Virus record (IMG/VR): IMGVR_UViG_3300045988_153303 | Length of the DNA: 18,809 nucleotides | Reading direction: 5' to 3' (one strand) | DNA from: a virus | Shown here: positions 1 to 18,809 of the stretch, one piece after another | How the letters are laid out: each line of letters begins with the position of its first letter | Numbering within the stretch: position 1 is the first letter of the stretch | Made by a program: the position numbers and the translations under genes | Notes under the pieces: model-generated | Told to the model about the DNA's origin: nothing | Database searches by the model: none | The model's input: only the letters and a program-made list of their open reading frames with translations

Positions 1-72
1 GTGTGTGGTGGTGGTGTTGTTGTTTCATTGGCTGTTTTTTTATTTTTTTTTCCGTGTTTGTGTGTTTTCGGG

Positions 73-101
73 TTGTGTTGTTGTTTTTTGTGTGGTATAT
101 T
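73..101 (+). promoter_or_regulatory. Early promoter inside the left ITR (TTGTGT - 17 nt - TGgTATATT, extended -10)
   Basis: TTGTGT at 73-78, a 17-nt spacer, then TGGTATATT at 93-101. It lies about 34 nt upstream of the ATG at 135, which has AAGGAG at 123-128. The same extended -10 pattern recurs at 2917-2925 and 13113-13121 on the minus strand. Confidence 0.55.
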
Positions 102-111
102 GTAATTACAA
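100..111. promoter_or_regulatory. Perfect 12-bp palindrome TTGTAATTACAA overlapping the -10/+1 region (operator-like)
   Basis: ttgtaattacaa at 100-111 equals its own reverse complement and overlaps the last two bases of the -10 hexamer (96-101). I found it only in the two ITR copies. Confidence 0.4.
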
Positions 112-134
112 ACCTCATTGGAAAGGAGAATGAA

Positions 135-476
135 ATGTTTGTTGCAACTTATTTTGCGGATGATGATTGTGTTGTTGCTGTGCGGCCTGTTGCGGTTAAG
201 GGTGATGTGGATTGGTCGTCTTTGTATATTGTGGATGATGTTACTGGTTATGGTATGTGGCAGCAGGATGGTGATGATAGGTGGTTTATTGATATTGCTC
301 CTGTGGGTGGTTATGATTTGTGGTGTGATTTGGATGCGTTGAAGATTACTGGTATTTATGGTTCTGATGGGGGTGGGTGGGAGTCTTGTGTGAATGATTT
401 TCTTGCGGATTATGGTTTTAGGCTTGGTCGGTTTGATGGTGTTAGGGGGGATAGGTATGAGTTGGTTGCGTTGTGA
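135..476 (+). CDS. ITR-encoded acidic 113-aa protein, unknown function (left copy)
   Basis: ORF 3..476 trimmed to the ATG at 135, which has AAGGAG 6 nt upstream. The discarded N-terminus (MWWWCCCFIGCFF...) lies upstream of and across the predicted promoter and looks non-protein-like. I count about 19 Asp, 2 Glu, 8 Arg/Lys and 5 Trp. A hairpin terminator follows at 494-523. Confidence 0.7.
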   Translation: MFVATYFADDDCVVAVRPVAVKGDVDWSSLYIVDDVTGYGMWQQDGDDRWFIDIAPVGGYDLWCDLDALKITGIYGSDGGGWESCVNDFLADYGFRLGRFDGVRGDRYELVAL

Positions 477-493
477 GGTTGGTTGGATAAGTT

Positions 494-523
494 AAACCCC
501 TAGGTTTTTTGGCCTAGGGGTTT
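494..523. terminator. Hairpin terminator between convergent genes (ITR gene and endolysin)
   Basis: aaacccctagg (494-504) pairs perfectly with cctaggggttt (513-523) around an 8-nt loop. On the + strand a T-rich tail follows (tttttgttggttgtttt). It sits between a + strand stop (476) and a - strand stop (536). Confidence 0.75.
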
Positions 524-535
524 TTGTTGGTTGTT

Positions 536-1177
536 TTATATGAGGTATTGTGTTGTGCCGTTTACGGCTTTTAGTGCGACGTATCGGGTTTTGCCTGAAC
601 CGCCTGTGTAGTGTGCCCAAATGTACCCGTCTGCGGTTGTGGTGCCGCTTGCGAGGATGACGGTTTGTCCTTTGTGGTATTGTGCTACGACTTGACTGTG
701 GATGCTTGGTGCAGAGCGTACGTTGAGTACTGGCACGTTGACTTGATAGGTGCGTGTGGTGGTGGTGTTGTTGTTGTTGCGTGGGTGGAAGTATCCTATG
801 ATGCCTTTTTTGCTGATATTGATGTATCCGGCTTTGTTGGGGTTTTGTGACATGGTGGTGAGTGTGCCGTTGCCGTTGTCTTTGATTACGATGGCGACGT
901 GGTTCATGCCGCTGCGTTTCCAGAATGCTACGTCACCGTAGGTTGGCGTGTAGTTGGCTGACTCTTTGGTGAAAGCGTTTTGCAGTGCGTGGGAGCGGTT
1001 GTATCGTGCTGTGTATACGCTTGCTGCGTATCCGTCTATGGTGTTTGTGTCGGTTTGTGGGATGCTGTATACGTGTTGTGCGTAGGAGCTCCATAGGTCC
1101 CAGCATTGTGCTCCGTATGCTCCGTCCATGTCGATGGCTTTGCCGTTGACTGTGTTGATCCATTCTTGGATGTTCAT
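536..1177 (-). CDS. Endolysin: N-terminal CHAP-type cysteine peptidase/amidase plus C-terminal SH3b-like wall-binding domain
   Basis: ORF 536..1315 trimmed to the ATG at 1175-1177, preceded by AAAGGAG with a 6-nt spacer. CHAP-like GAYGAQCWDLW (Cys) and NHVAIV (His), an NNNNTTTT linker, and an SH3b-like C-terminus (YQVNVPVLNVRSAPS...GYIWAHY). It is the last gene of a holin-containing cassette. Confidence 0.85.
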   Translation of the reverse strand: MNIQEWINTVNGKAIDMDGAYGAQCWDLWSSYAQHVYSIPQTDTNTIDGYAASVYTARYNRSHALQNAFTKESANYTPTYGDVAFWKRSGMNHVAIVIKDNGNGTLTTMSQNPNKAGYINISKKGIIGYFHPRNNNNTTTTRTYQVNVPVLNVRSAPSIHSQVVAQYHKGQTVILASGTTTADGYIWAHYTGGSGKTRYVALKAVNGTTQYLI

Positions 1178-1188
1178 TTTTTGCTCCT

Positions 1189-1365
1189 TTATATGGTTTG
1201 GGTTAGGTATAGTGTTGCTGTGAGCCATGGTGTTATGGTTATTAGCATGAGTTGGGAGGCTCCTTTTCGGTATTGGTGTCCGGTTTTGAGGTGTGATAGG
1301 CAGTATGCTGTCCATCCTATGATGGCTAGGATGGTGAGGATGTTGAATGCTAGTATTTGGTTCAT
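1189..1365 (-). CDS. Small membrane protein (58 aa), possible holin partner or antiholin
   Basis: This is the last 58 codons of the otherwise implausible ORF 1189..1875: MNQILAFNILTILAIIGWTAYCLSHLK..., with one clear hydrophobic helix. Its ATG (1363-1365) overlaps the holin stop (1362-1364) as ATGA. Its stop lies next to the endolysin SD. Confidence 0.5.
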   Translation of the reverse strand: MNQILAFNILTILAIIGWTAYCLSHLKTGHQYRKGASQLMLITITPWLTATLYLTQTI

Positions 1366-1727
1366 TTGTTGCTGTGTTTTGGTTTGGTGTTGTTTTGTTT
1401 GAAGATGTTCATGAATGGCGTATTTTCGAGTTCGGGGTTGATGGCGGTAATGTTTTCGAGGATTGAGGTGAGTTCGATGAGGCAGATGCCACTGATGGTG
1501 CAGACGAATACGTTGATGGGGAAGCCGAGGGAGACGTGTGTGTTTACCGTGTCTATAAACCATGCCGTCACCGTGAGGATGAGGTAGGTCAGTTTGTGTC
1601 CTAGTCCTGTCCGCATCTTTTGGGAGCTGAGATCGCCTTTCATGATGGCTTTTATCGTGCCGGTGATATAGTCTGTGGTAGTGAAGAAGAGCACTGCGAT
1701 GGCGCACCACATGTCTGATTCTGTCAT
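1362..1727 (-). CDS. Holin (phage_holin_4-like)
   Basis: 121 aa with several hydrophobic segments. DYITGTIKAIMKGDLSSQKMRTGLGHKL resembles the hallmark of the LL-H/A118-type holin family as I remember it. SD GAAAGGA lies upstream of the ATG at 1725-1727. The gene is immediately upstream of the endolysin. Confidence 0.8.
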   Translation of the reverse strand: MTESDMWCAIAVLFFTTTDYITGTIKAIMKGDLSSQKMRTGLGHKLTYLILTVTAWFIDTVNTHVSLGFPINVFVCTISGICLIELTSILENITAINPELENTPFMNIFKQNNTKPKHSNK

Positions 1728-1742
1728 TATTGTGTTTCCTTT

Positions 1743-2810
1743 CTATTTTCCTAGCAGATCTCCAATGATCAGAGCGAAGTCTGCTTTGACTTGGGAGTCT
1801 TCGAATCTTATCTTGCCGAGCCGATAGCCGGTGGTAAGCCGTCTGATTACGTCGTCGGATTTTTTGACGTACCATGTCTTCTCGTCGACGTGGCTGGGGT
1901 CGAGCGTGTATACGGGGCGAGTGTTTTCTTTGGGGATGCGTCGTGAAATGTATTGTGAGACGTGGCCGTCCTTTTCGGATATGGTGATCCAGATTCCGAA
2001 GAGCCCATAGTCGGTGGTGTCTAGGACGTAGGATAGGTCGCTGTCTGACGGTATTGGCGCTATTAAAGTGTCGGATTCGTCTCGGAATTGGTTGCGGATG
2101 GCGTAATCCGCATAGTCGCTGTCATACTGTTCTAGGAATCTGCCGAATTTGGATTTGGCGACTTTTGCTGAGAAGCCTCCATAGTCAGCCAGCTCGAGAC
2201 AGATGAAGCCATTGCAATATAATTTATATTGTTGTTGATTGGCTTGTTGTGTGCCGATATCAAGCCTGTATTTGGCGAAATACGGATTGGCTTTCTGGAC
2301 CGCATTGGATAGGAACAGTACTTTCGTCCTATCCTGCCAGCGGTCGACGGTATTGTAGAATTCGGAGAATGAATTGACTTCATTGCTGAGGAAGCGCAGA
2401 TTGTCGGGGAAGATCTCATCGAAGATGATGAGATGCACTTTCGGGTAGGCGACTGATTTCAGGCCGCCGGCTTGGGAGAGGGCAACGAAGTAACAGCAGG
2501 TGCGCCAATCCTTTTCATCCCACGAATTCCTGTGCAATTGGCCTTTTTCGCCGTTGACGCGAAAAGCATATTCCGGGAAGAAGCCTTGGATGTCCTTGAA
2601 AAACGTTTCCTTGCGCTTCTGTTCCACATCGGTGCGTCGTAGGTAGATGAATTCGTGCCCGTGCTTGAGATATTCTTTGATTCCGTAGCGTTTCGCGGCG
2701 AATGTCTTGCCGAGGCCGCGCGCTCCGATGATGAAATTCCACGGCGCATTGCGGGAGAGGAGGTTGTGCAGGTCGTAATAGTCGTCTTCGCTTAATGTCT
2801 GCAACACCAC
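1743..2810 (-). CDS. DNA encapsidation (packaging) ATPase, phi29 gp16-like
   Basis: Walker A NFIIGARGLGKTF and Walker B HLIIFDEIF. The N-terminal region aligns closely with phi29 gp16 as I recall it (NFVIGARGIGKSY...FIYVRR versus NFIIGARGLGKTF...FIYLRR). GTG start with GGAGGAGGAG 6 nt upstream. Confidence 0.93.
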   Translation of the reverse strand: MVLQTLSEDDYYDLHNLLSRNAPWNFIIGARGLGKTFAAKRYGIKEYLKHGHEFIYLRRTDVEQKRKETFFKDIQGFFPEYAFRVNGEKGQLHRNSWDEKDWRTCCYFVALSQAGGLKSVAYPKVHLIIFDEIFPDNLRFLSNEVNSFSEFYNTVDRWQDRTKVLFLSNAVQKANPYFAKYRLDIGTQQANQQQYKLYCNGFICLELADYGGFSAKVAKSKFGRFLEQYDSDYADYAIRNQFRDESDTLIAPIPSDSDLSYVLDTTDYGLFGIWITISEKDGHVSQYISRRIPKENTRPVYTLDPSHVDEKTWYVKKSDDVIRRLTTGYRLGKIRFEDSQVKADFALIIGDLLGK

Positions 2811-15833: not shown

Positions 15834-16277
15834 TCACTTCGCTTCTTCATCCACCGGCTCAATGCTGAAGAATTTAAAGCCACGGCGGGACCGACGTTCC
15901 ACCACCTTAATAGGGAGGGGAGCATCCCAAGTGTTAGGAGTACCGAAGATGCCGAACATTGTGTTCAACCCGGCCGCCAGAGTGGGGGAGGTGGCGGAGT
16001 ACGCCTTGCCATCGGCGGTGACGATGATGACACGCACTGTGGCGGAAATCTCTCCGGTCTGATCGTCGGTCACCTGTACGGCCTGTGCGACTGCATTCGA
16101 CATGAGCATGGTCTCGTTCAGATGTTCATCGAGCTTTTCAGCATTCTGAAGTGCGGAGTAGAGCTTGATCTTGCCTTCGCGGGTGCTAGTGTCGATGAAG
16201 TGCTGGACGGTGCCGAGCTCAGTGTTTTCGGTGTTGAATGCGACGAGTGCGGTGCTGTTGTCGTTTTCCATGGTCAT
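15834..16277 (-). CDS. Putative ssDNA-binding protein (phi29 gp5 position)
   Basis: 147 aa, located between the 105-aa gene and the terminal-protein candidate, matching the phi29 order 6-5-(4)-3-2. Short acidic C-terminal tail (EPVDEEAK). The assignment rests on position and size only. Confidence 0.35.
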   Translation of the reverse strand: MTMENDNSTALVAFNTENTELGTVQHFIDTSTREGKIKLYSALQNAEKLDEHLNETMLMSNAVAQAVQVTDDQTGEISATVRVIIVTADGKAYSATSPTLAAGLNTMFGIFGTPNTWDAPLPIKVVERRSRRGFKFFSIEPVDEEAK

Positions 16278-16335
16278 ATCCTTTTGTCTAGTTATTTGTT
16301 GTTTTTGCTAGGCTTTTGTGCCTAAATCTTTTATA

Positions 16336-16653
16336 TCACATGCCGTCATTGTTTTCAATTTCGGCATGTCGTTTTTTTTCGTGTTCTTCCGGATTCCACT
16401 TCTGCGGCTCCTCAAAAGTCGCATACTTGTAAAATGTTTCGTCATCCATCGTGACCTTCTGAGAAAAGACCTCGATAGTACGCGGCATGAAATTCGGAAA
16501 AAGCTTCTTAGCACGGACCGCATACGCACGAGCATCCTTCAAACGCCCGTCAACGACATGCTCGGTCGGCATAAAATCGCCATCCACCAATTCCATGCCT
16601 CTCAATACAGCATACACACGAGTCCGGAACACTCCCGATTTTACTCGAGCCAT
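16336..16653 (-). CDS. 105-aa protein, unknown; first gene after the consensus promoter (phi29 gp6 position)
   Basis: ATG at 16651-16653 with AAGGAAAG 9 nt upstream. The composition is protein-like, and the size matches the 104-aa phi29 p6. No sequence similarity is claimed. Confidence 0.6.
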   Translation of the reverse strand: MARVKSGVFRTRVYAVLRGMELVDGDFMPTEHVVDGRLKDARAYAVRAKKLFPNFMPRTIEVFSQKVTMDDETFYKYATFEEPQKWNPEEHEKKRHAEIENNDGM

Positions 16654-16659
16654 AATAGC

Positions 16660-17187
16660 CTACTTTCCTTGATCAAAAATCCTTGACAATTCCTTATCAT
16701 TATAACGAGTCACATCAAGTCTGTCAAAATTCTTAAAGACCGCAATAATAAGATTACGCGCCCGCACATCGTCGAAAAGAGCACAACAATCAAAGCTCGT
16801 ACCCCCCTTGACCGCACACACCGCGCACCAAGCGATCAGATTCACAGGATCCACCGTACCATCCAAATACTCCACATCGAAAGTACGAGACAGCGCCGAC
16901 TGCAAACCATCCCCCCGACTCAAAGAGCCAGCAATCCGCACGACCATGAGGACAGCCTGATCAAACCACGGATTAACCCCCTCTCGCCACAATTCACACA
17001 GCATAGCAACAGCCCGACAACACGTCTCGAAGTCACCACACCCCTCATCATAGCGGCCCAAGGAAGCCTCACGCATACGACCACACAGCGCCCTACGAAT
17101 ACGCGGCGACTCCATGATCGCATCATCAAAATCACGCATACGATAGATCGGGACCCAACCATCCCCCCGGACAAAACCCTTAGACAT
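16660..17187 (-). CDS. Early protein, about 175 aa, unknown function
   Basis: Long ORF 16660..17220. I prefer the ATG at 17185-17187 (GAGGA 8 nt upstream, 8-nt overlap with the upstream gene) over the ATG at 17220 (41-nt overlap). Helix-rich, Cys-rich sequence with no motif I recognise. Confidence 0.6.
   Translation of the reverse strand: MSKGFVRGDGWVPIYRMRDFDDAIMESPRIRRALCGRMREASLGRYDEGCGDFETCCRAVAMLCELWREGVNPWFDQAVLMVVRIAGSLSRGDGLQSALSRTFDVEYLDGTVDPVNLIAWCAVCAVKGGTSFDCCALFDDVRARNLIIAVFKNFDRLDVTRYNDKELSRIFDQGK
16699..16727 (-). promoter_or_regulatory. Consensus sigma-70-type promoter TTGACA - 17 nt - TATAAT for the replication module
   Basis: + strand attata at 16699-16704 and tgtcaa at 16722-16727, with exactly 17 nt between them. 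On the minus strand this reads TTGACA-N17-TATAAT. The -10 hexamer ends about 45 nt upstream of the ATG at 16653. The promoter lies inside the 3' end of the 16660..17187 CDS. Confidence 0.75.
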
Positions 17188-17353
17188 AATACCGATCCTC
17201 GATCCTAAAATAGGAGACATCCTTTACACGCTCCGGCCTATCAGCCCACTCACGAACTATCTTGTAACCCTCATCATACGACGACGCATAGCCGATCTCG
17301 ACAGGCTCACCACCATGACGCAAATACGCCAAAACAGTAAAAGTCTTATACAT
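17180..17353 (-). CDS. Early protein, 57 aa, unknown function (below the ORF-track size cut-off)
   Basis: Hand translation: MYKTFTVLAYLRHGGEPVEIGYASSYDEGYKIVREWADRPERVKDVSYFRIEDRYYV. AGGA lies 9 nt upstream. It fills the gap between neighbouring genes; the upstream stop at 17357 is 3 nt away. Confidence 0.45.
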   Translation of the reverse strand: MYKTFTVLAYLRHGGEPVEIGYASSYDEGYKIVREWADRPERVKDVSYFRIEDRYYV

Positions 17354-17356
17354 GAT

Positions 17357-17569
17357 TCACATTCCTAACGTTTCATACTGCTCGACACTCCAATCATGCC
17401 CACATACCCACATGTCATGCCAGACGGCAATCAGACGACGCGGACAGCGAGTCGGTGCAACAAAACGACGATTCCGATAGCCACTCCAGAAAGCACGAAG
17501 CCGCCAATACGCCTCCGCATCCGGACAATCACCACACGTGAGCGAATGAACAAAGCCACAAAAATACAT
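17357..17569 (-). CDS. Early protein, about 70 aa, Cys/Trp-rich, unknown function
   Basis: The track ORF 17357..17572 starts at GTG. The ATG at 17567-17569 shares one base with the upstream TGA (TGATG), suggesting translational coupling. Confidence 0.5.
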   Translation of the reverse strand: MYFCGFVHSLTCGDCPDAEAYWRLRAFWSGYRNRRFVAPTRCPRRLIAVWHDMWVCGHDWSVEQYETLGM

Positions 17570-17799
17570 CACCCCCTCCTTTCGACAGATTCTGCGGCAA
17601 GACTAATAGCATCCAACACCATACTCCCCATCTCACTCGGCTTCGTTACATCATAATAACAAGAAGACATCACACCACCCCCCGTACGATACCTCAACAC
17701 CAGCATCTGCTGATGCGGACAATACTCACACCCCACATTACCAGCTATATGCGGGCTATAAAACACGGCGATTTTCACATCACGCGCAGACGATTTCAT
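17569..17799 (-). CDS. Early protein, about 76 aa, unknown function
   Basis: ORF 17569..17844 trimmed to the ATG at 17797-17799, which has GAAAGGA 5 nt upstream. This removes the overlap with the upstream gene, which ends at 17814. Confidence 0.5.
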   Translation of the reverse strand: MKSSARDVKIAVFYSPHIAGNVGCEYCPHQQMLVLRYRTGGGVMSSCYYDVTKPSEMGSMVLDAISLAAESVERRG

Positions 17800-17813
17800 G
17801 ACAATCCTTTCGA

Positions 17814-18122
17814 TCAAAATTTTCCAAGAATACGATGCTCCCACGAGACATACTCATCATACCACTCGGAACATACCAGCTCATCCAAAGACAAGCCAAC
17901 AACACAGGCACGCTTACACGCCATATATCCGTCCAGCAAATCATAAGCCGTAAGCGCCAGCCACAAACGGCCGTCAGCCAGTACGAAAAACTCATGATAC
18001 GGCCGACGACACCCCGGATGCTTCCACGTCCACACGAACACAACCCTCCGCAAAGACTTCGAATCAACCAAAGTAAAATAATGATGTTGCATAACATCAT
18101 CAACACACAACACAACACTCAC
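17814..18122 (-). CDS. Early protein, 102 aa, unknown function
   Basis: GTG start overlapping the upstream stop (GTGA), with GAGG 4 nt upstream. More protein-like than the competing frame 17780..18118. 5 Trp and 5 Cys. Confidence 0.55.
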   Translation of the reverse strand: MSVVLCVDDVMQHHYFTLVDSKSLRRVVFVWTWKHPGCRRPYHEFFVLADGRLWLALTAYDLLDGYMACKRACVVGLSLDELVCSEWYDEYVSWEHRILGKF

Positions 18123-18334
18123 CTCCCCTCACACACAGGATCAAAAGCCATACAATAACGAGCCCAGCCAATAAGCTGAGCCGAAAACAACATCGCACGA
18201 TCCGCACTCACCTCAAAACGATAAACACTACCATCCAAACCAATATACGCAACGGTAGCAACACCATCCGAACGCTGAACAATACTGACACTAAAATGCT
18301 CCACAATACACTCCTTACCTACAAATACTCCCAT
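18119..18334 (-). CDS. Early protein, about 71 aa, unknown function
   Basis: The ATG at 18332-18334 shares one base with the TGA of the ITR gene (TGATG), exactly at the inner ITR boundary. Confidence 0.5.
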   Translation of the reverse strand: MGVFVGKECIVEHFSVSIVQRSDGVATVAYIGLDGSVYRFEVSADRAMLFSAQLIGWARYCMAFDPVCEGR

Positions 18335-18675
18335 CACAACGCAACCAACTCATACCTATCCCCCCTAACACCATCAAACCGACCAAGCCTAAAACCATAA
18401 TCCGCAAGAAAATCATTCACACAAGACTCCCACCCACCCCCATCAGAACCATAAATACCAGTAATCTTCAACGCATCCAAATCACACCACAAATCATAAC
18501 CACCCACAGGAGCAATATCAATAAACCACCTATCATCACCATCCTGCTGCCACATACCATAACCAGTAACATCATCCACAATATACAAAGACGACCAATC
18601 CACATCACCCTTAACCGCAACAGGCCGCACAGCAACAACACAATCATCATCCGCAAAATAAGTTGCAACAAACAT
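18334..18675 (-). CDS. ITR-encoded acidic 113-aa protein (right copy, first gene of the early operon)
   Basis: Mirror image of 135..476, with identical sequence. Confidence 0.7.
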   Translation of the reverse strand: MFVATYFADDDCVVAVRPVAVKGDVDWSSLYIVDDVTGYGMWQQDGDDRWFIDIAPVGGYDLWCDLDALKITGIYGSDGGGWESCVNDFLADYGFRLGRFDGVRGDRYELVAL

Positions 18676-18698
18676 TTCATTCTCCTTTCCAATGAGGT

Positions 18699-18710
18699 TT
18701 GTAATTACAA
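18699..18710. promoter_or_regulatory. Right-arm copy of the TTGTAATTACAA palindrome
   Basis: Mirror of 100-111 within the ITR. Confidence 0.4.
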
Positions 18711-18737
18711 TATACCACACAAAAAACAACAACACAA
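18709..18737 (-). promoter_or_regulatory. Early promoter inside the right ITR
   Basis: Mirror of 73-101. Here it would drive the whole right-arm early operon. Confidence 0.55.
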
Positions 18738-18809
18738 CCCGAAAACACACAAACACGGAAAAAAAAATAAAAAAACAGCCAATGAAACAACAACACCACC
18801 ACCACACAC

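What the first reader, a model, noticed from the sequence alone, without database searches (positions are those of the whole stretch)
1..476. 476-bp perfect ITRs that each carry a promoter, an operator-like palindrome and a whole gene, ending exactly at its stop codon
As I recall, the ITRs of phi29-group phages are a few bp long, and those of Cp-1 or tectiviruses are tens to about 200 bp. Here 476 bp are duplicated without a single mismatch, and the repeat boundary falls on the last base of the TGA stop. On the left the gene is followed by a terminator. On the right the same TGA is fused (TGATG) to the next early gene. So the genome has two identical, oppositely oriented expression units at its two tips. 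This gives a double gene dose, and the gene is present at whichever end enters the cell first. Perfect identity implies active homogenisation, for example panhandle formation of displaced single strands as known for adenovirus.
Basis: partly seen in the sequence, partly recalled or inferred. Interest (0 to 1): 0.72.

Follow-up and report, generated by a model that had tools for sequence, protein, structure and literature searches.

The report
Gene-carrying terminal repeats of a Bifidobacterium phage
A small phi29-like gut phage of Bifidobacterium really does carry the same promoter and complete early gene in an inverted repeat at both genome tips, and relatives with shorter, mosaic and longer repeats suggest the two ends copy sequence from each other; this is a new variant of a known kind of genome end, not a new principle.

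Summary
Window 1-476 and 18334-18809 are 100% complementary, and the repeat holds a conserved extended -10 promoter, an RBS and a whole 113-aa ORF (135-476) ending on the last repeat base.

It is not an assembly artefact. Four independent assemblies of the same phage from three other samples contain both junctions.

The interpretation needs corrections:
- The window tips are truncated (at least 59 nt missing), so the ITR is at least ~535 nt.
- Length and promoter content have precedents: asccphi28 577 bp, Mycoplasma phage P1 350 bp.
- The palindrome is neither conserved nor above chance.
- The TGATG junction is the native early-end arrangement. The left copy, next to the terminator, is the derived one. 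It replaces a diverged paralogue that a relative (178209) still has there.
- The boundary at the stop codon is the point where homology between the two ends stops. It is not a conserved feature, because relative 145004 has a 621-nt ITR running 104 nt further.

Homogenisation has some support: a private SNP shared by both arms in one strain, and a mosaic paralogue in 178209. However, perfect arm identity in short-read assemblies is partly forced. The gene's function is unknown; it encodes a small, acidic, fast-evolving protein under purifying selection. Verdict: a new variant of a known kind, of moderate interest.

The parts
1..476 (+). Left ('late-end') ITR arm. This is the derived copy. The true tip lies at least 59 nt beyond base 1.
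   Evidence: 100% complementary to 18334-18809. The tip extension is seen in L016 and in 145004. The 476/477 junction is confirmed in four other assemblies.
1..72 (+). G+T-rich terminal region with (GT)n, (GGT)n and (GTT)n runs and T tracts. Presumed part of the protein-primed replication origin.
   Evidence: Sequence. Alignable with the tips of 145004 and 178209. The GTT copy number differs from L016. The origin function is inferred from position only.
73..101 (+). Early promoter: weak -35 TTGTGT (73-78) and extended -10 TGgTATATT (93-101).
   Evidence: Coordinates. The block TTTTCGGG..GTGT..TG(G/T)TATnnT is conserved upstream of the first gene at both ends of the relatives. Activity has not been tested.
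101..128 (+). Conserved 5' leader, including the palindrome TGTAATTACA (101-110) and the RBS GAAAGGAG (121-128).
   Evidence: The family consensus TGTAGTTATCAaCTTCAAGGgAAGGA is not palindromic. Palindromes of this length occur at chance frequency.
135..476 (+). Gene A, left copy: 113 aa, pI 4.05, no known domain. A monocistronic unit.
   Evidence: Translation. 188 homologues, all unannotated. dN/dS 0.2-0.5. No Pfam, PHROG, PDB or fold match.
494..523 (+). Intrinsic-terminator hairpin between gene A (left copy) and the convergent lysin gene. It lies outside the ITR.
   Evidence: 13-bp stem, 6 GC pairs, T run. A homologous hairpin with compensatory changes is present at the late end of 178209, 145004, BD811P2 and BP1.
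536..1177 (-). CHAP-domain endolysin, the last gene of the late operon, convergent with the left gene A copy.
   Evidence: PF05257 on the identical product in L057-L059. 69% aa identity to the BP1 endolysin.
18334..18809 (-). Right ('early-end') ITR arm. This is the native copy: tip, promoter, leader and gene A (18675-18334) as the first cistron of the early operon.
   Evidence: The arrangement gene A - TGATGGGA - next early gene is conserved in 145004 and 178209 and is present in L016, L017 and L056.
18119..18334 (-). Second early gene. It is 71 aa from the ATG that overlaps the TGA of gene A, or 61 aa from the in-frame GTG 18304, which follows the RBS AAGGAG at 18316-18311.
   Evidence: Called as 71 aa in public assemblies. 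RBS and GTG coordinates. The RBS-GTG block is conserved in relatives.

Best explanation
What the window is: a nearly complete linear genome of a phi29-like, protein-primed podophage of human-gut Bifidobacterium.

The normal arrangement in this phage group: the ITR consists of the replication tip plus a conserved early promoter and leader, and it ends at about the start codon of whatever small acidic gene comes first at each end.

What differs here: the repeat has grown to take in the whole first early gene (gene A).

How it arose (inferred): the native copy is the right, early-end one. It was copied onto the left, late end, where it replaced a diverged paralogue of the same family. The mechanism was recombination or gene conversion between the two termini. 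That could be heteroduplex repair in a panhandle formed by a displaced single strand, or template switching during strand-displacement replication. The tract stops at the stop codon because that is where sequence similarity between the two ends stops. Beyond it lie a terminator on one side and the next early gene on the other.

Consequence: gene A is transcribed inward from both tips. On the right it is the first cistron of the early operon. On the left it is a monocistronic unit closed by the terminator it shares with the late operon.

Shown: the reality of the repeat and of both junctions, the polarity of the copying, and the graded series of ITR states in relatives.

Inferred: the molecular mechanism, ongoing homogenisation, promoter activity, and the role of gene A (an early host-takeover or anti-defence protein is only a guess).
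For: 1. The repeat is real.
- It is perfect over 476 nt.
- Both junctions are found in independent assemblies from ERZ27256442, JGI 3300029698 and ERR912041.
- The ERZ918256 contig ends 127 nt (= its k) beyond an arm-specific SNP on both sides, which is what a true inverted repeat produces.

2. Group identity. Relatives are BD811P1-3 and BP1. Pfam hits on the identical products: DNA_pol_B_2, Phi29_MCP, Phage_connector, Podovirus_Gp16 and Phi29_Phage_SSB.

3. The baseline ITR ends at the start codon. BD811P2's two ends share promoter, RBS and ATGAA and then diverge into different genes. BP1's 148-nt ITR ends just before both ATGs.

4. Polarity of the copying.
- The junction TGA|TGGGA..GTAAGGAGTGTAYTGTGGAG is shared by the early ends of the window, 145004 and 178209.
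- The left flank of the window is homologous to the late-end terminator of 178209, BD811P2 and BP1.
- 178209's early-end copy is 81% aa identical to the window's gene, while its late-end copy is only 49% identical and groups with the BD811P late-end gene.
- The family is the first early-end gene in at least 14 related contigs.

5. A graded series of ITR lengths: 137 nt in 178209, 476+ nt in the window and 621 nt in 145004.

6. Exchange between the arms.
- 178209's late-end paralogue is a mosaic. Its 5' ~27 nt and 3' ~85 nt match its own early-end copy (94-97% in the best windows), while its centre is BD811P-type and shares that type's indels.
- In ERZ918256, the private variant A382G is present in both arms.
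- The window and 145004 differ at about 10% of ITR positions, yet each assembly has identical arms.

7. The gene is functional: dN/dS 0.2-0.5.

8. Precedent. The panhandle or 'homology-restoring' model for the ITRs of adenovirus and PRD1 is summarised in PMC11886824.
Against: - No reads or long-read data were available, so arm identity further than about k nt from the junctions is not independently established. Assemblers give identical arms by construction.
- The ERZ918256 strain has one arm-specific difference (A367G), so any homogenisation is not instantaneous.
- The window and 145004 have different ITR boundaries. Their gene-bearing ITRs may therefore be two independent recent duplications rather than one old duplication kept identical, which would remove the main argument for concerted evolution.
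- The shared A382G variant is a single site.
- The paralogue-replacement step rests on 178209 (86.5% nt identity) being a fair model of the window's ancestor.
- The lysin module next to the left junction is itself a swap, BP1-like. The left end could therefore have been rebuilt by recombination with another phage rather than by intramolecular conversion.
- PMC11886824 states that direct evidence for panhandles is still lacking.
Confidence: 0.7

Rival explanations
1. Assembly artefact. The true ITR is about 134 nt (tip plus promoter), and an assembler wrongly placed the gene-bearing end on both sides, as a chimeric or fold-back join.
For: Relatives' ITRs end at the start codon. Arms of inverted repeats collapse in de Bruijn graphs. 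The window's two arms start at exactly the same truncated position, which suggests that one graph node was used twice.
Against: Both junctions lie outside any shared repeat, so each needs real reads that span it. Both are present in four other assemblies from three samples made with different assemblers and k values (k119, k127, JGI, Logan). One contig carries both junctions plus an arm-specific SNP. A related genome (145004) has a longer gene-bearing ITR.
Confidence: 0.03
2. One-off illegitimate end repair. A genome that had lost or damaged its late terminus was rescued by copying the other end, and the join fell at the stop codon by chance. Only joins that kept an intact gene and terminator survived. 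No paralogue was involved and there is no ongoing homogenisation; the arms are identical simply because the event is recent.
For: 145004's ITR ends 104 nt past the stop, inside the next gene. There is no homology between the ends at that point, so illegitimate joins do occur in this clade. All four assemblies of the window's phage are at least 99.95% identical, which fits a young lineage. The adjacent lysin module was also exchanged.
Against: The boundary coincides to the base with the end of a gene whose paralogue occupies exactly that position in 178209 and the BD811P phages. 178209's mosaic paralogue shows that homology-driven exchange between the arms happens. A382G is present in both arms of one strain.
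Confidence: 0.2
3. Adaptive duplication. Carrying gene A at both tips is selected for. It would double the early dose, or ensure the gene is on whichever end enters the cell first, or place it on the late end if that end enters first, as the right end of phi29 does. The ITR structure would then be maintained by selection, not only by replication mechanics.
For: The family recurs next to the terminal promoter at the early end, the late end or both ends in different relatives. Both ends of every examined relative carry an inward-facing promoter driving a small acidic protein. The gene is under purifying selection yet evolves faster than its neighbours. From general knowledge of phi29: the left unit is the positional analogue of the phi29 right-end promoter C2 and gene 17 unit, convergent with the late operon.
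Against: There are no functional data and no recognisable domain or fold (model pLDDT 55.7). Most relatives manage with a single copy. Ejection polarity is unknown for this group. This explanation is compatible with the best explanation and does not exclude it.
Confidence: 0.25

Closest known systems
Lactococcus phage asccphi28 (EU438902), 577-bp ITRs
   Same: A phi29-like protein-primed podophage of about 18.8 kb. Its ITR is perfect and of comparable or greater length, with annotated promoters and a terminator inside the repeat.
   Different: No annotated CDS lies inside the ITR; ORF01 starts at 614 and ORF28 ends at 18168. There is no sequence similarity to the window. Small unannotated ORFs of 39-62 codons exist inside its ITR, but they were not evaluated.
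Mycoplasma phage P1 (NC_002515, 350-bp ITR) and Streptococcus phage Cp-1 (NC_001825, 236-bp ITR)
   Same: The ITR contains an early promoter and ends at or near the first gene at each end (P1: promoter 227-260, orf1 starts at 350). This is the baseline arrangement seen here in BD811P2 and BP1.
   Different: The ITR stops before the coding sequence, and the two ends drive different genes.
Bifidobacterium phages BD811P1-3 and BP1; IMG/VR contigs 3300045988_145004 and _178209
   Same: The same phage group: about 80% nt identity for BD811P, 86-94% for the IMG/VR contigs. They share the terminal promoter/leader and the gene A family at a terminus.
   Different: BD811P has gene A at the late end only, with the ITR ending 5 nt after the ATG. 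BP1 has no family member, and its 148-nt ITR ends before the ATG. 178209 has diverged mosaic paralogues at both ends and a 137-nt perfect ITR. 145004 has a 621-nt ITR containing gene A plus 104 nt of the next gene.
ITR homology restoration (panhandle model) in adenovirus and tectivirus PRD1
   Same: Protein-primed linear genomes whose ITR arms are kept identical. The displaced single strand is proposed to self-anneal through the ITRs, allowing one arm to be repaired from the other (PMC11886824, citing Savilahti & Bamford 1993 and Wang et al. 1991).
   Different: Those ITRs are about 100-110 bp and non-coding. The mechanism is only inferred here, and PMC11886824 notes that direct evidence for panhandles is lacking even in the model systems.
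Gene-bearing terminal inverted repeats of poxviruses and of Streptomyces linear replicons (general knowledge, not tested here)
   Same: Complete genes are present in two copies in inverted orientation at both ends. Repeat boundaries shift between strains through terminal transposition or recombination.
   Different: The end structures and replication differ (hairpin telomeres, or internal origins with end patching). Their repeats are kilobases long with many genes. They have no evolutionary relationship to this phage.
phi29 right-end early unit (promoter C2, genes 17 to 16.5) (general knowledge)
   Same: An inward-facing early promoter next to one terminus, convergent with the late operon and separated from it by a terminator, like the window's left unit.
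   Different: phi29 has a 6-bp ITR, the unit is present at one end only, and its genes are unrelated to gene A.

Membership tests
phi29-like (Salasmaviridae-type) protein-primed podophages | Protein-primed family B DNA polymerase | tested here: met
   PF03175 DNA_pol_B_2 on the 482-aa product of L016/L017, which are 99.97% identical to the window.
phi29-like (Salasmaviridae-type) protein-primed podophages | phi29-type structural and packaging module (MCP, connector, gp9-like tail protein, gp16 ATPase) and phi29-type SSB | tested here: met
   PF25622, PF05352, PF20934, PF05894 and PF17427 on the products of identical loci.
phi29-like (Salasmaviridae-type) protein-primed podophages | [quoted passage not shown] | not testable with these tools
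   A 338-aa ORF lies between the SSB and polymerase genes, at the expected position, but has no Pfam hit. Covalent linkage needs virion DNA.
phi29-like (Salasmaviridae-type) protein-primed podophages | Packaging pRNA | tested here: not met
   No Rfam match at E up to 1 anywhere in the window. A divergent pRNA cannot be excluded.
Long promoter-bearing ITRs of protein-primed phages (asccphi28, P1, Cp-1 type) | Perfect or near-perfect inverted repeat of hundreds of bp at both termini | tested here: met
   476 nt at 100% in the window. Reference ITRs measured at 577, 350 and 236 nt.
Long promoter-bearing ITRs of protein-primed phages (asccphi28, P1, Cp-1 type) | Early promoter inside the ITR, reading inward | tested here: inconclusive
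   An extended -10 element at 93-101 is conserved across relatives at both ends. The generic sigma-70 scan did not call it. There are no transcript data.
Long promoter-bearing ITRs of protein-primed phages (asccphi28, P1, Cp-1 type) | ITR is non-coding and ends before the first gene | tested here: not met
   The complete 113-aa ORF 135-476 lies inside the ITR. This is the respect in which the window is a variant.
ITRs kept identical by inter-arm repair (adenovirus/PRD1 panhandle model) | A change in one arm is transferred to the other (concerted evolution of the arms) | tested here: inconclusive
   For: A382G is present in both arms of ERZ918256; 178209 has a mosaic paralogue; arms are identical within the window and within 145004 although the two genomes diverge by about 10%. 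Against or limiting: A367G is present in one arm only, arm identity is partly forced by assembly, and independent duplications are possible.
ITRs kept identical by inter-arm repair (adenovirus/PRD1 panhandle model) | Panhandle intermediate of the displaced single strand | not testable with these tools
   This needs electron microscopy or biochemical analysis of replicating DNA.
Known protein families, for gene A | Significant match to a Pfam, PHROG or PDB sequence family, or to a solved fold | tested here: not met
   No Pfam or PHROG hit for the window protein. No PDB sequence hit with the family profile. AlphaFold model pLDDT 55.7, and best Foldseek E about 1.

The most novel reading that the evidence does not exclude
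In this clade of phi29-like phages the ITR boundary is mobile. Sequence is repeatedly copied from one terminus to the other during protein-primed replication, so whole genes are captured into the repeat and then kept identical. The natural series would be 137 nt with mosaic paralogues, then 476+ nt ending at a stop codon, then 621 nt ending inside the next gene. Together with arm-specific and arm-shared SNPs, this series would give a tractable bacterial system for demonstrating the long-postulated but never directly shown panhandle or inter-arm repair intermediate. A bolder add-on is that the duplicated gene is an immediate-early anti-defence protein made independent of which end enters the cell first.
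Probability: 0.4. Interest if true: 0.55.

Novelty: new variant of a known kind. Interest (0 to 1): 0.42.

Why it matters
ITRs of protein-primed phages are usually treated as short, non-coding origin sequences. This case differs in three ways.

- A complete, selected gene sits inside the repeat.
- Close relatives show the repeat at three different lengths.
- One relative has a half-converted paralogue.

Together these give comparative evidence that the two ends of a phi29-like genome exchange sequence. That idea comes from adenovirus and PRD1 and still lacks direct proof.

There is also a practical point. Deposited genomes of this group (BD811P1-3, BP1) have truncated or misassembled termini, and public metagenome contigs cut the repeat at about k-1 nt. 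Terminal genes and ITR lengths in this group are therefore systematically under-reported. The gene itself is a fast-evolving, acidic, first-expressed protein shared with unrelated ~30 kb Bifidobacterium phages, which makes it a reasonable candidate for functional screening. None of this overturns current understanding.

Tried and rejected
- **Assembly artefact.** Rejected after both ends of three other contigs of the same phage were retrieved and the junctions checked.
- **My first polarity model.** I first took the late-end copy as ancestral and the early-end copy as derived, based on BD811P homologues at the late end. The terminal alignment and 178209 reversed this.
- **Operator-like palindrome.** Rejected. 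It is not conserved and occurs at chance frequency.
- **Function of gene A.** Pfam, PHROGs, a PDB profile search, AlphaFold on a 45-sequence alignment (pLDDT 55.7) and Foldseek against the PDB all gave nothing usable.
- **pRNA or other RNA.** No Rfam hit.
- **Exact junction search in IMG/VR.** No hit, because the same strain is not in that collection.
- The first endolysin look-up failed because the start codon was called differently. Savilahti & Bamford 1993 is not held in the library, so it is cited only through PMC11886824.
- **Not attempted.** A systematic scan of all phi29-like records for genes inside ITRs. Only asccphi28, Cp-1 and P1 were measured, and GC1 was read from its paper.
Full report
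**1. Observation**

The window has a single long inverted repeat. Arms 1-476 and 18334-18809 are 100% complementary, and identity ends exactly after base 476: TGA|GGTTGG on the left and TGA|TGGGAG on the right.

Each arm contains:
- a G+T-rich tip;
- an extended -10 element, TGgTATATT, at 93-101, with a weak -35 at 73-78;
- the palindrome TGTAATTACA at 101-110;
- the RBS GAAAGGAG at 121-128;
- a 113-codon ORF running from ATG 135 to TGA 474-476.

On the left, a strong terminator-like hairpin follows at 494-523. Every other gene is on the minus strand. On the right, the last base of the TGA is the first base of an in-frame ATG. The description in the finding is therefore accurate.

**2. What the genome is**

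Megablast finds only the Bifidobacterium podophages BD811P1-3 (about 80% identity over about 70% of the window) and BP1. Products of loci that are 99.97% identical to the window carry these Pfam domains: DNA_pol_B_2, Phi29_MCP, phi29_gp9_C, Phage_connector, Podovirus_Gp16 and Phi29_Phage_SSB. This is a phi29-like, presumably protein-primed phage of human-gut Bifidobacterium.

The right end of the window is the 'early' end, with this gene order: gene A, small early genes, SSB, a 338-aa candidate terminal protein, polymerase, and then the late genes. The left end is the 'late' end: ATPase, holin, CHAP lysin, terminator, and then the convergent gene A copy.

**3. Is the repeat real?**

The same phage (99.95-99.97% nt identity) has been assembled independently in three other samples:
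- ENA ERZ27256442 (k119, 18,487 bp);
- JGI 3300029698 (18,403 bp);
- ERR912041, assembled both as ENA ERZ918256 (k127, 18,334 bp) and as a Logan contig.

All of them contain the right junction with the whole gene or a large part of it. All of them also contain the left junction, preceded by 94, 77, 237 and 30 nt of the gene copy respectively. Truncation about k-1 nt into the repeat is what de Bruijn assemblers do with a genuine inverted repeat.

The ERZ918256 contig is the most informative, because it holds both junctions. Its two arms differ at ITR position 367, and the contig stops exactly 127 nt (= k) beyond that SNP at both ends. A chimeric or fold-back artefact is excluded.

Two caveats remain:
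- The window's tips are incomplete. L016 extends 59 nt and relative 145004 extends 43 nt beyond base 1, so the ITR is at least about 535 nt.
- Beyond about k nt from the junctions the two arms are one graph node. 'Not a single mismatch' is therefore partly an assembly product.

**4. Comparison of termini in relatives**

The deposited isolates are truncated at their tips. BD811P1 and P3 begin and end inside genes, and BD811P2 starts at the equivalent of window position ~84. In BP1, positions 1-242 are an 88% direct repeat of 662-903, and its ITR arm begins at position 380. They are still informative:
- BD811P2's two ends share the promoter, leader, RBS and ATGAA, and then diverge into two unrelated small genes.
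- BP1's 148-nt ITR ends just before the two different start codons.

The baseline ITR in this group is therefore tip plus promoter plus leader.

Two IMG/VR genomes are closer relatives.

| Genome | Identity to window | Perfect ITR | Gene A family |
|---|---|---|---|
| 3300045988_145004 | 94% nt | 621 nt | Gene A plus 104 nt of the next early gene inside the ITR |
| 3300045988_178209 | 86.5% nt | 137 nt | Diverged copies at both ends: early-end copy 81% aa identical to the window's, late-end copy 49% |

The alignment of all termini shows two things:
- The right junction (gene A, TGATGGGA, GTAAGGAGTGTAYTGTGGAG) is the conserved native early-end arrangement.
- The sequence to the left of the window's left junction is the conserved late-end terminator, which in 178209 and BD811P2 follows the diverged paralogue.

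So the early-end gene was copied onto the late end, replacing the paralogue. The repeat ends at the stop codon because that is where similarity between the two ends stops.

In a wider census, the family is the first early-end gene in at least 14 related ~18 kb contigs. It is at the late end only in BD811P1-3, at both ends as diverged copies in 178209, and at both ends as identical copies only in the window's phage and 145004.

**5. Evidence for exchange between the arms**

- 178209's late-end paralogue is a mosaic. Its first ~27 nt and last ~85 nt match its own early-end copy (94-97% in the best 30-nt windows, including a shared 9-nt insertion). Its centre is BD811P-type, shares that type's indels and is 90% identical to it over columns 211-270.
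- In ERZ918256 the private variant A382G is present in both arms. Both occurrences are within k of the junction and are therefore phased. A367G is present in one arm only.
- The window and 145004 differ at about 10% of ITR positions, more than over the rest of the genome, yet each assembly has identical arms.

These observations fit inter-arm gene conversion, as proposed for adenovirus and PRD1 (PMC11886824). They are not decisive. There is only one shared SNP. The window and 145004 have different boundaries, so they may represent independent recent duplications. Assembly also forces arm identity.

**6. The other elements in the finding**

- **Promoter and leader.** The block is strongly conserved across the group at both ends, which supports function. 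The generic promoter scan missed it because the -35 is weak.
- **Palindrome.** It is a variant of a conserved non-palindromic leader (TGTAGTTATCA). Ten-nt palindromes occur at chance frequency, 18 observed versus 18.1 expected. There is no support for an operator.
- **TGATG overlap.** Gene callers use it to start the next gene. An in-frame GTG at 18304 with the RBS AAGGAG (18316-18311) is an equally good or better start.
- **The two expression units.** They share promoter and gene but differ in context. The right copy heads a polycistronic early operon. The left copy is monocistronic and ends at a terminator shared with the late operon, much like the right-end C2 and gene 17 unit of phi29 (general knowledge).

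**7. Gene A**

The protein is 113 aa with pI 4.05 (21 Asp/Glu against 8 Lys/Arg) and five Trp residues. A profile search finds 188 homologues, all unannotated and without Pfam domains. They occur on ~18 kb podophage contigs and on ~30 kb 'Namikivirus' MAGs.

In the Namikivirus genome the gene is a lone, opposite-strand, moron-like gene between the ERF and YqaJ-like recombination genes. It has a similar leader and its own terminator.

There is no Pfam, PHROG or PDB match, the AlphaFold model is poor (pLDDT 55.7), and Foldseek gives nothing. dN/dS is 0.2-0.5, with dN at least twice that of neighbouring genes. The gene is therefore functional and fast-evolving. A role as an immediate-early host-takeover or anti-defence protein is plausible but is only a guess.

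**8. Comparison with what is known**

The deposited records show a perfect 577-bp ITR with annotated promoters and a terminator in asccphi28, a 350-bp ITR with a promoter ending at orf1 in Mycoplasma phage P1, and 236 bp in Cp-1. Tectivirus GC1 has 326 bp (PMC5795452). None of these has an annotated gene inside the repeat.

Gene-bearing terminal inverted repeats are well known in poxviruses and in Streptomyces linear replicons (general knowledge). I found no description of one for phi29-like phages in the literature I could search. The papers on the Bifidobacterium podophages do not discuss termini.

**9. Verdict**

This is a real, independently supported ITR of at least ~535 nt that contains a complete early gene. 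It most likely arose when the early-end gene was copied over a terminal paralogue. Relatives preserve shorter, mosaic and longer states.

It is a new variant of a known kind of genome end. It is of moderate interest mainly as comparative evidence, and as a possible experimental system, for inter-terminal sequence exchange in protein-primed phages.

Noticed in passing
window 1-30 and 18780-18809; L016 1-90: The window's tips are truncated inside a (GT)n/(GGT)n/(GTT)n microsatellite-like stretch. Another assembly of the same phage continues 59 nt further (TGTTTGGAGTTTTCCCGGTTGGATTTTTTTTTTATTG...) and has one GTT unit fewer. The true terminal nucleotides remain unknown.
   Followed up: partly
L004 (BP1, PQ571273) 1-379; L002 and L003 (BD811P1, BD811P3) ends; L001 (BD811P2) ends: The deposited isolate genomes have faulty termini. 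BP1 positions 1-242 are an 88% direct repeat of 662-903, placed outside the ITR arm that starts at 380. BD811P1 and P3 start and end inside terminal genes. BD811P2 lacks the tip upstream of the promoter.
   Followed up: partly
window 536-2810 versus 16001-18333: G+T richness is mirror-symmetric about the genome centre and independent of coding strand. GC skew is +0.24 and AT skew -0.30 at the left, against -0.30 and +0.19 at the right, although genes are on the minus strand in both regions. The 5'-ending (displaced) strand at each end is G+T-rich, as expected for strand-displacement replication from both ends.
   Followed up: partly
L060 6001-6318 (OP072408, 'Namikivirus tsukuho'); L010-L015: Homologues of the ITR gene (39-47% aa identity) occur in unrelated ~30 kb phage genomes. 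There the gene is a lone, opposite-strand gene between the ERF and YqaJ-like recombination genes, with a similar leader/RBS and its own terminator. This suggests a mobile moron-like cassette shared among Bifidobacterium phages.
   Followed up: partly
window 477-1374: The lysis module next to the left ITR is a swap. The CHAP lysin (536-1177) is 69% aa identical to BP1's lysin. The much closer relatives 145004 and 178209, and the BD811P phages, carry an unrelated ~294-aa lysin and show no nucleotide match in this region.
   Followed up: partly
P0009 (JGI contig of 18,550 bp): This is a short variant of the gene. The first ~35 residues are of the early-end type and are joined directly to a late-end-type C-terminus (…SSLYIAADERLADYGFKLGVFDEVGDWYELVVV). 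It looks like an internal deletion or a recombinant between the two paralogue types.
   Followed up: no
L007 518-700 (145004, late end): The 621-nt ITR of 145004 leaves a truncated copy of the second early gene at the late end. The copy runs into unrelated sequence and stops shortly before the terminator. This is an illegitimate join, unlike the window's boundary at the stop codon.
   Followed up: partly
whole window: No Rfam family matches at E up to 1. In particular there is no phi29-type pRNA, although the packaging ATPase and connector are of the phi29 type.
   Followed up: partly
window 755 and 813; ITR positions 367 and 382 in L019 and L056: Micro-variation between strains of the same phage: a 3-nt (GTG) indel and one SNP in the lysin gene, and two A-to-G changes in the Gly/Trp-rich segment of gene A (D to G and E to G). 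One of the two is present in both arms and the other in one arm only.
   Followed up: yes
L001 51-236 (BD811P2 early end); L004 528-773 and 19041-19316 (BP1): The first gene driven by the terminal promoter at either end of the relatives is a different small protein in each case. The BD811P2 and BP1 late-end examples look markedly Asp/Glu-rich, like gene A. I did not calculate their pI or charge.
   Followed up: no
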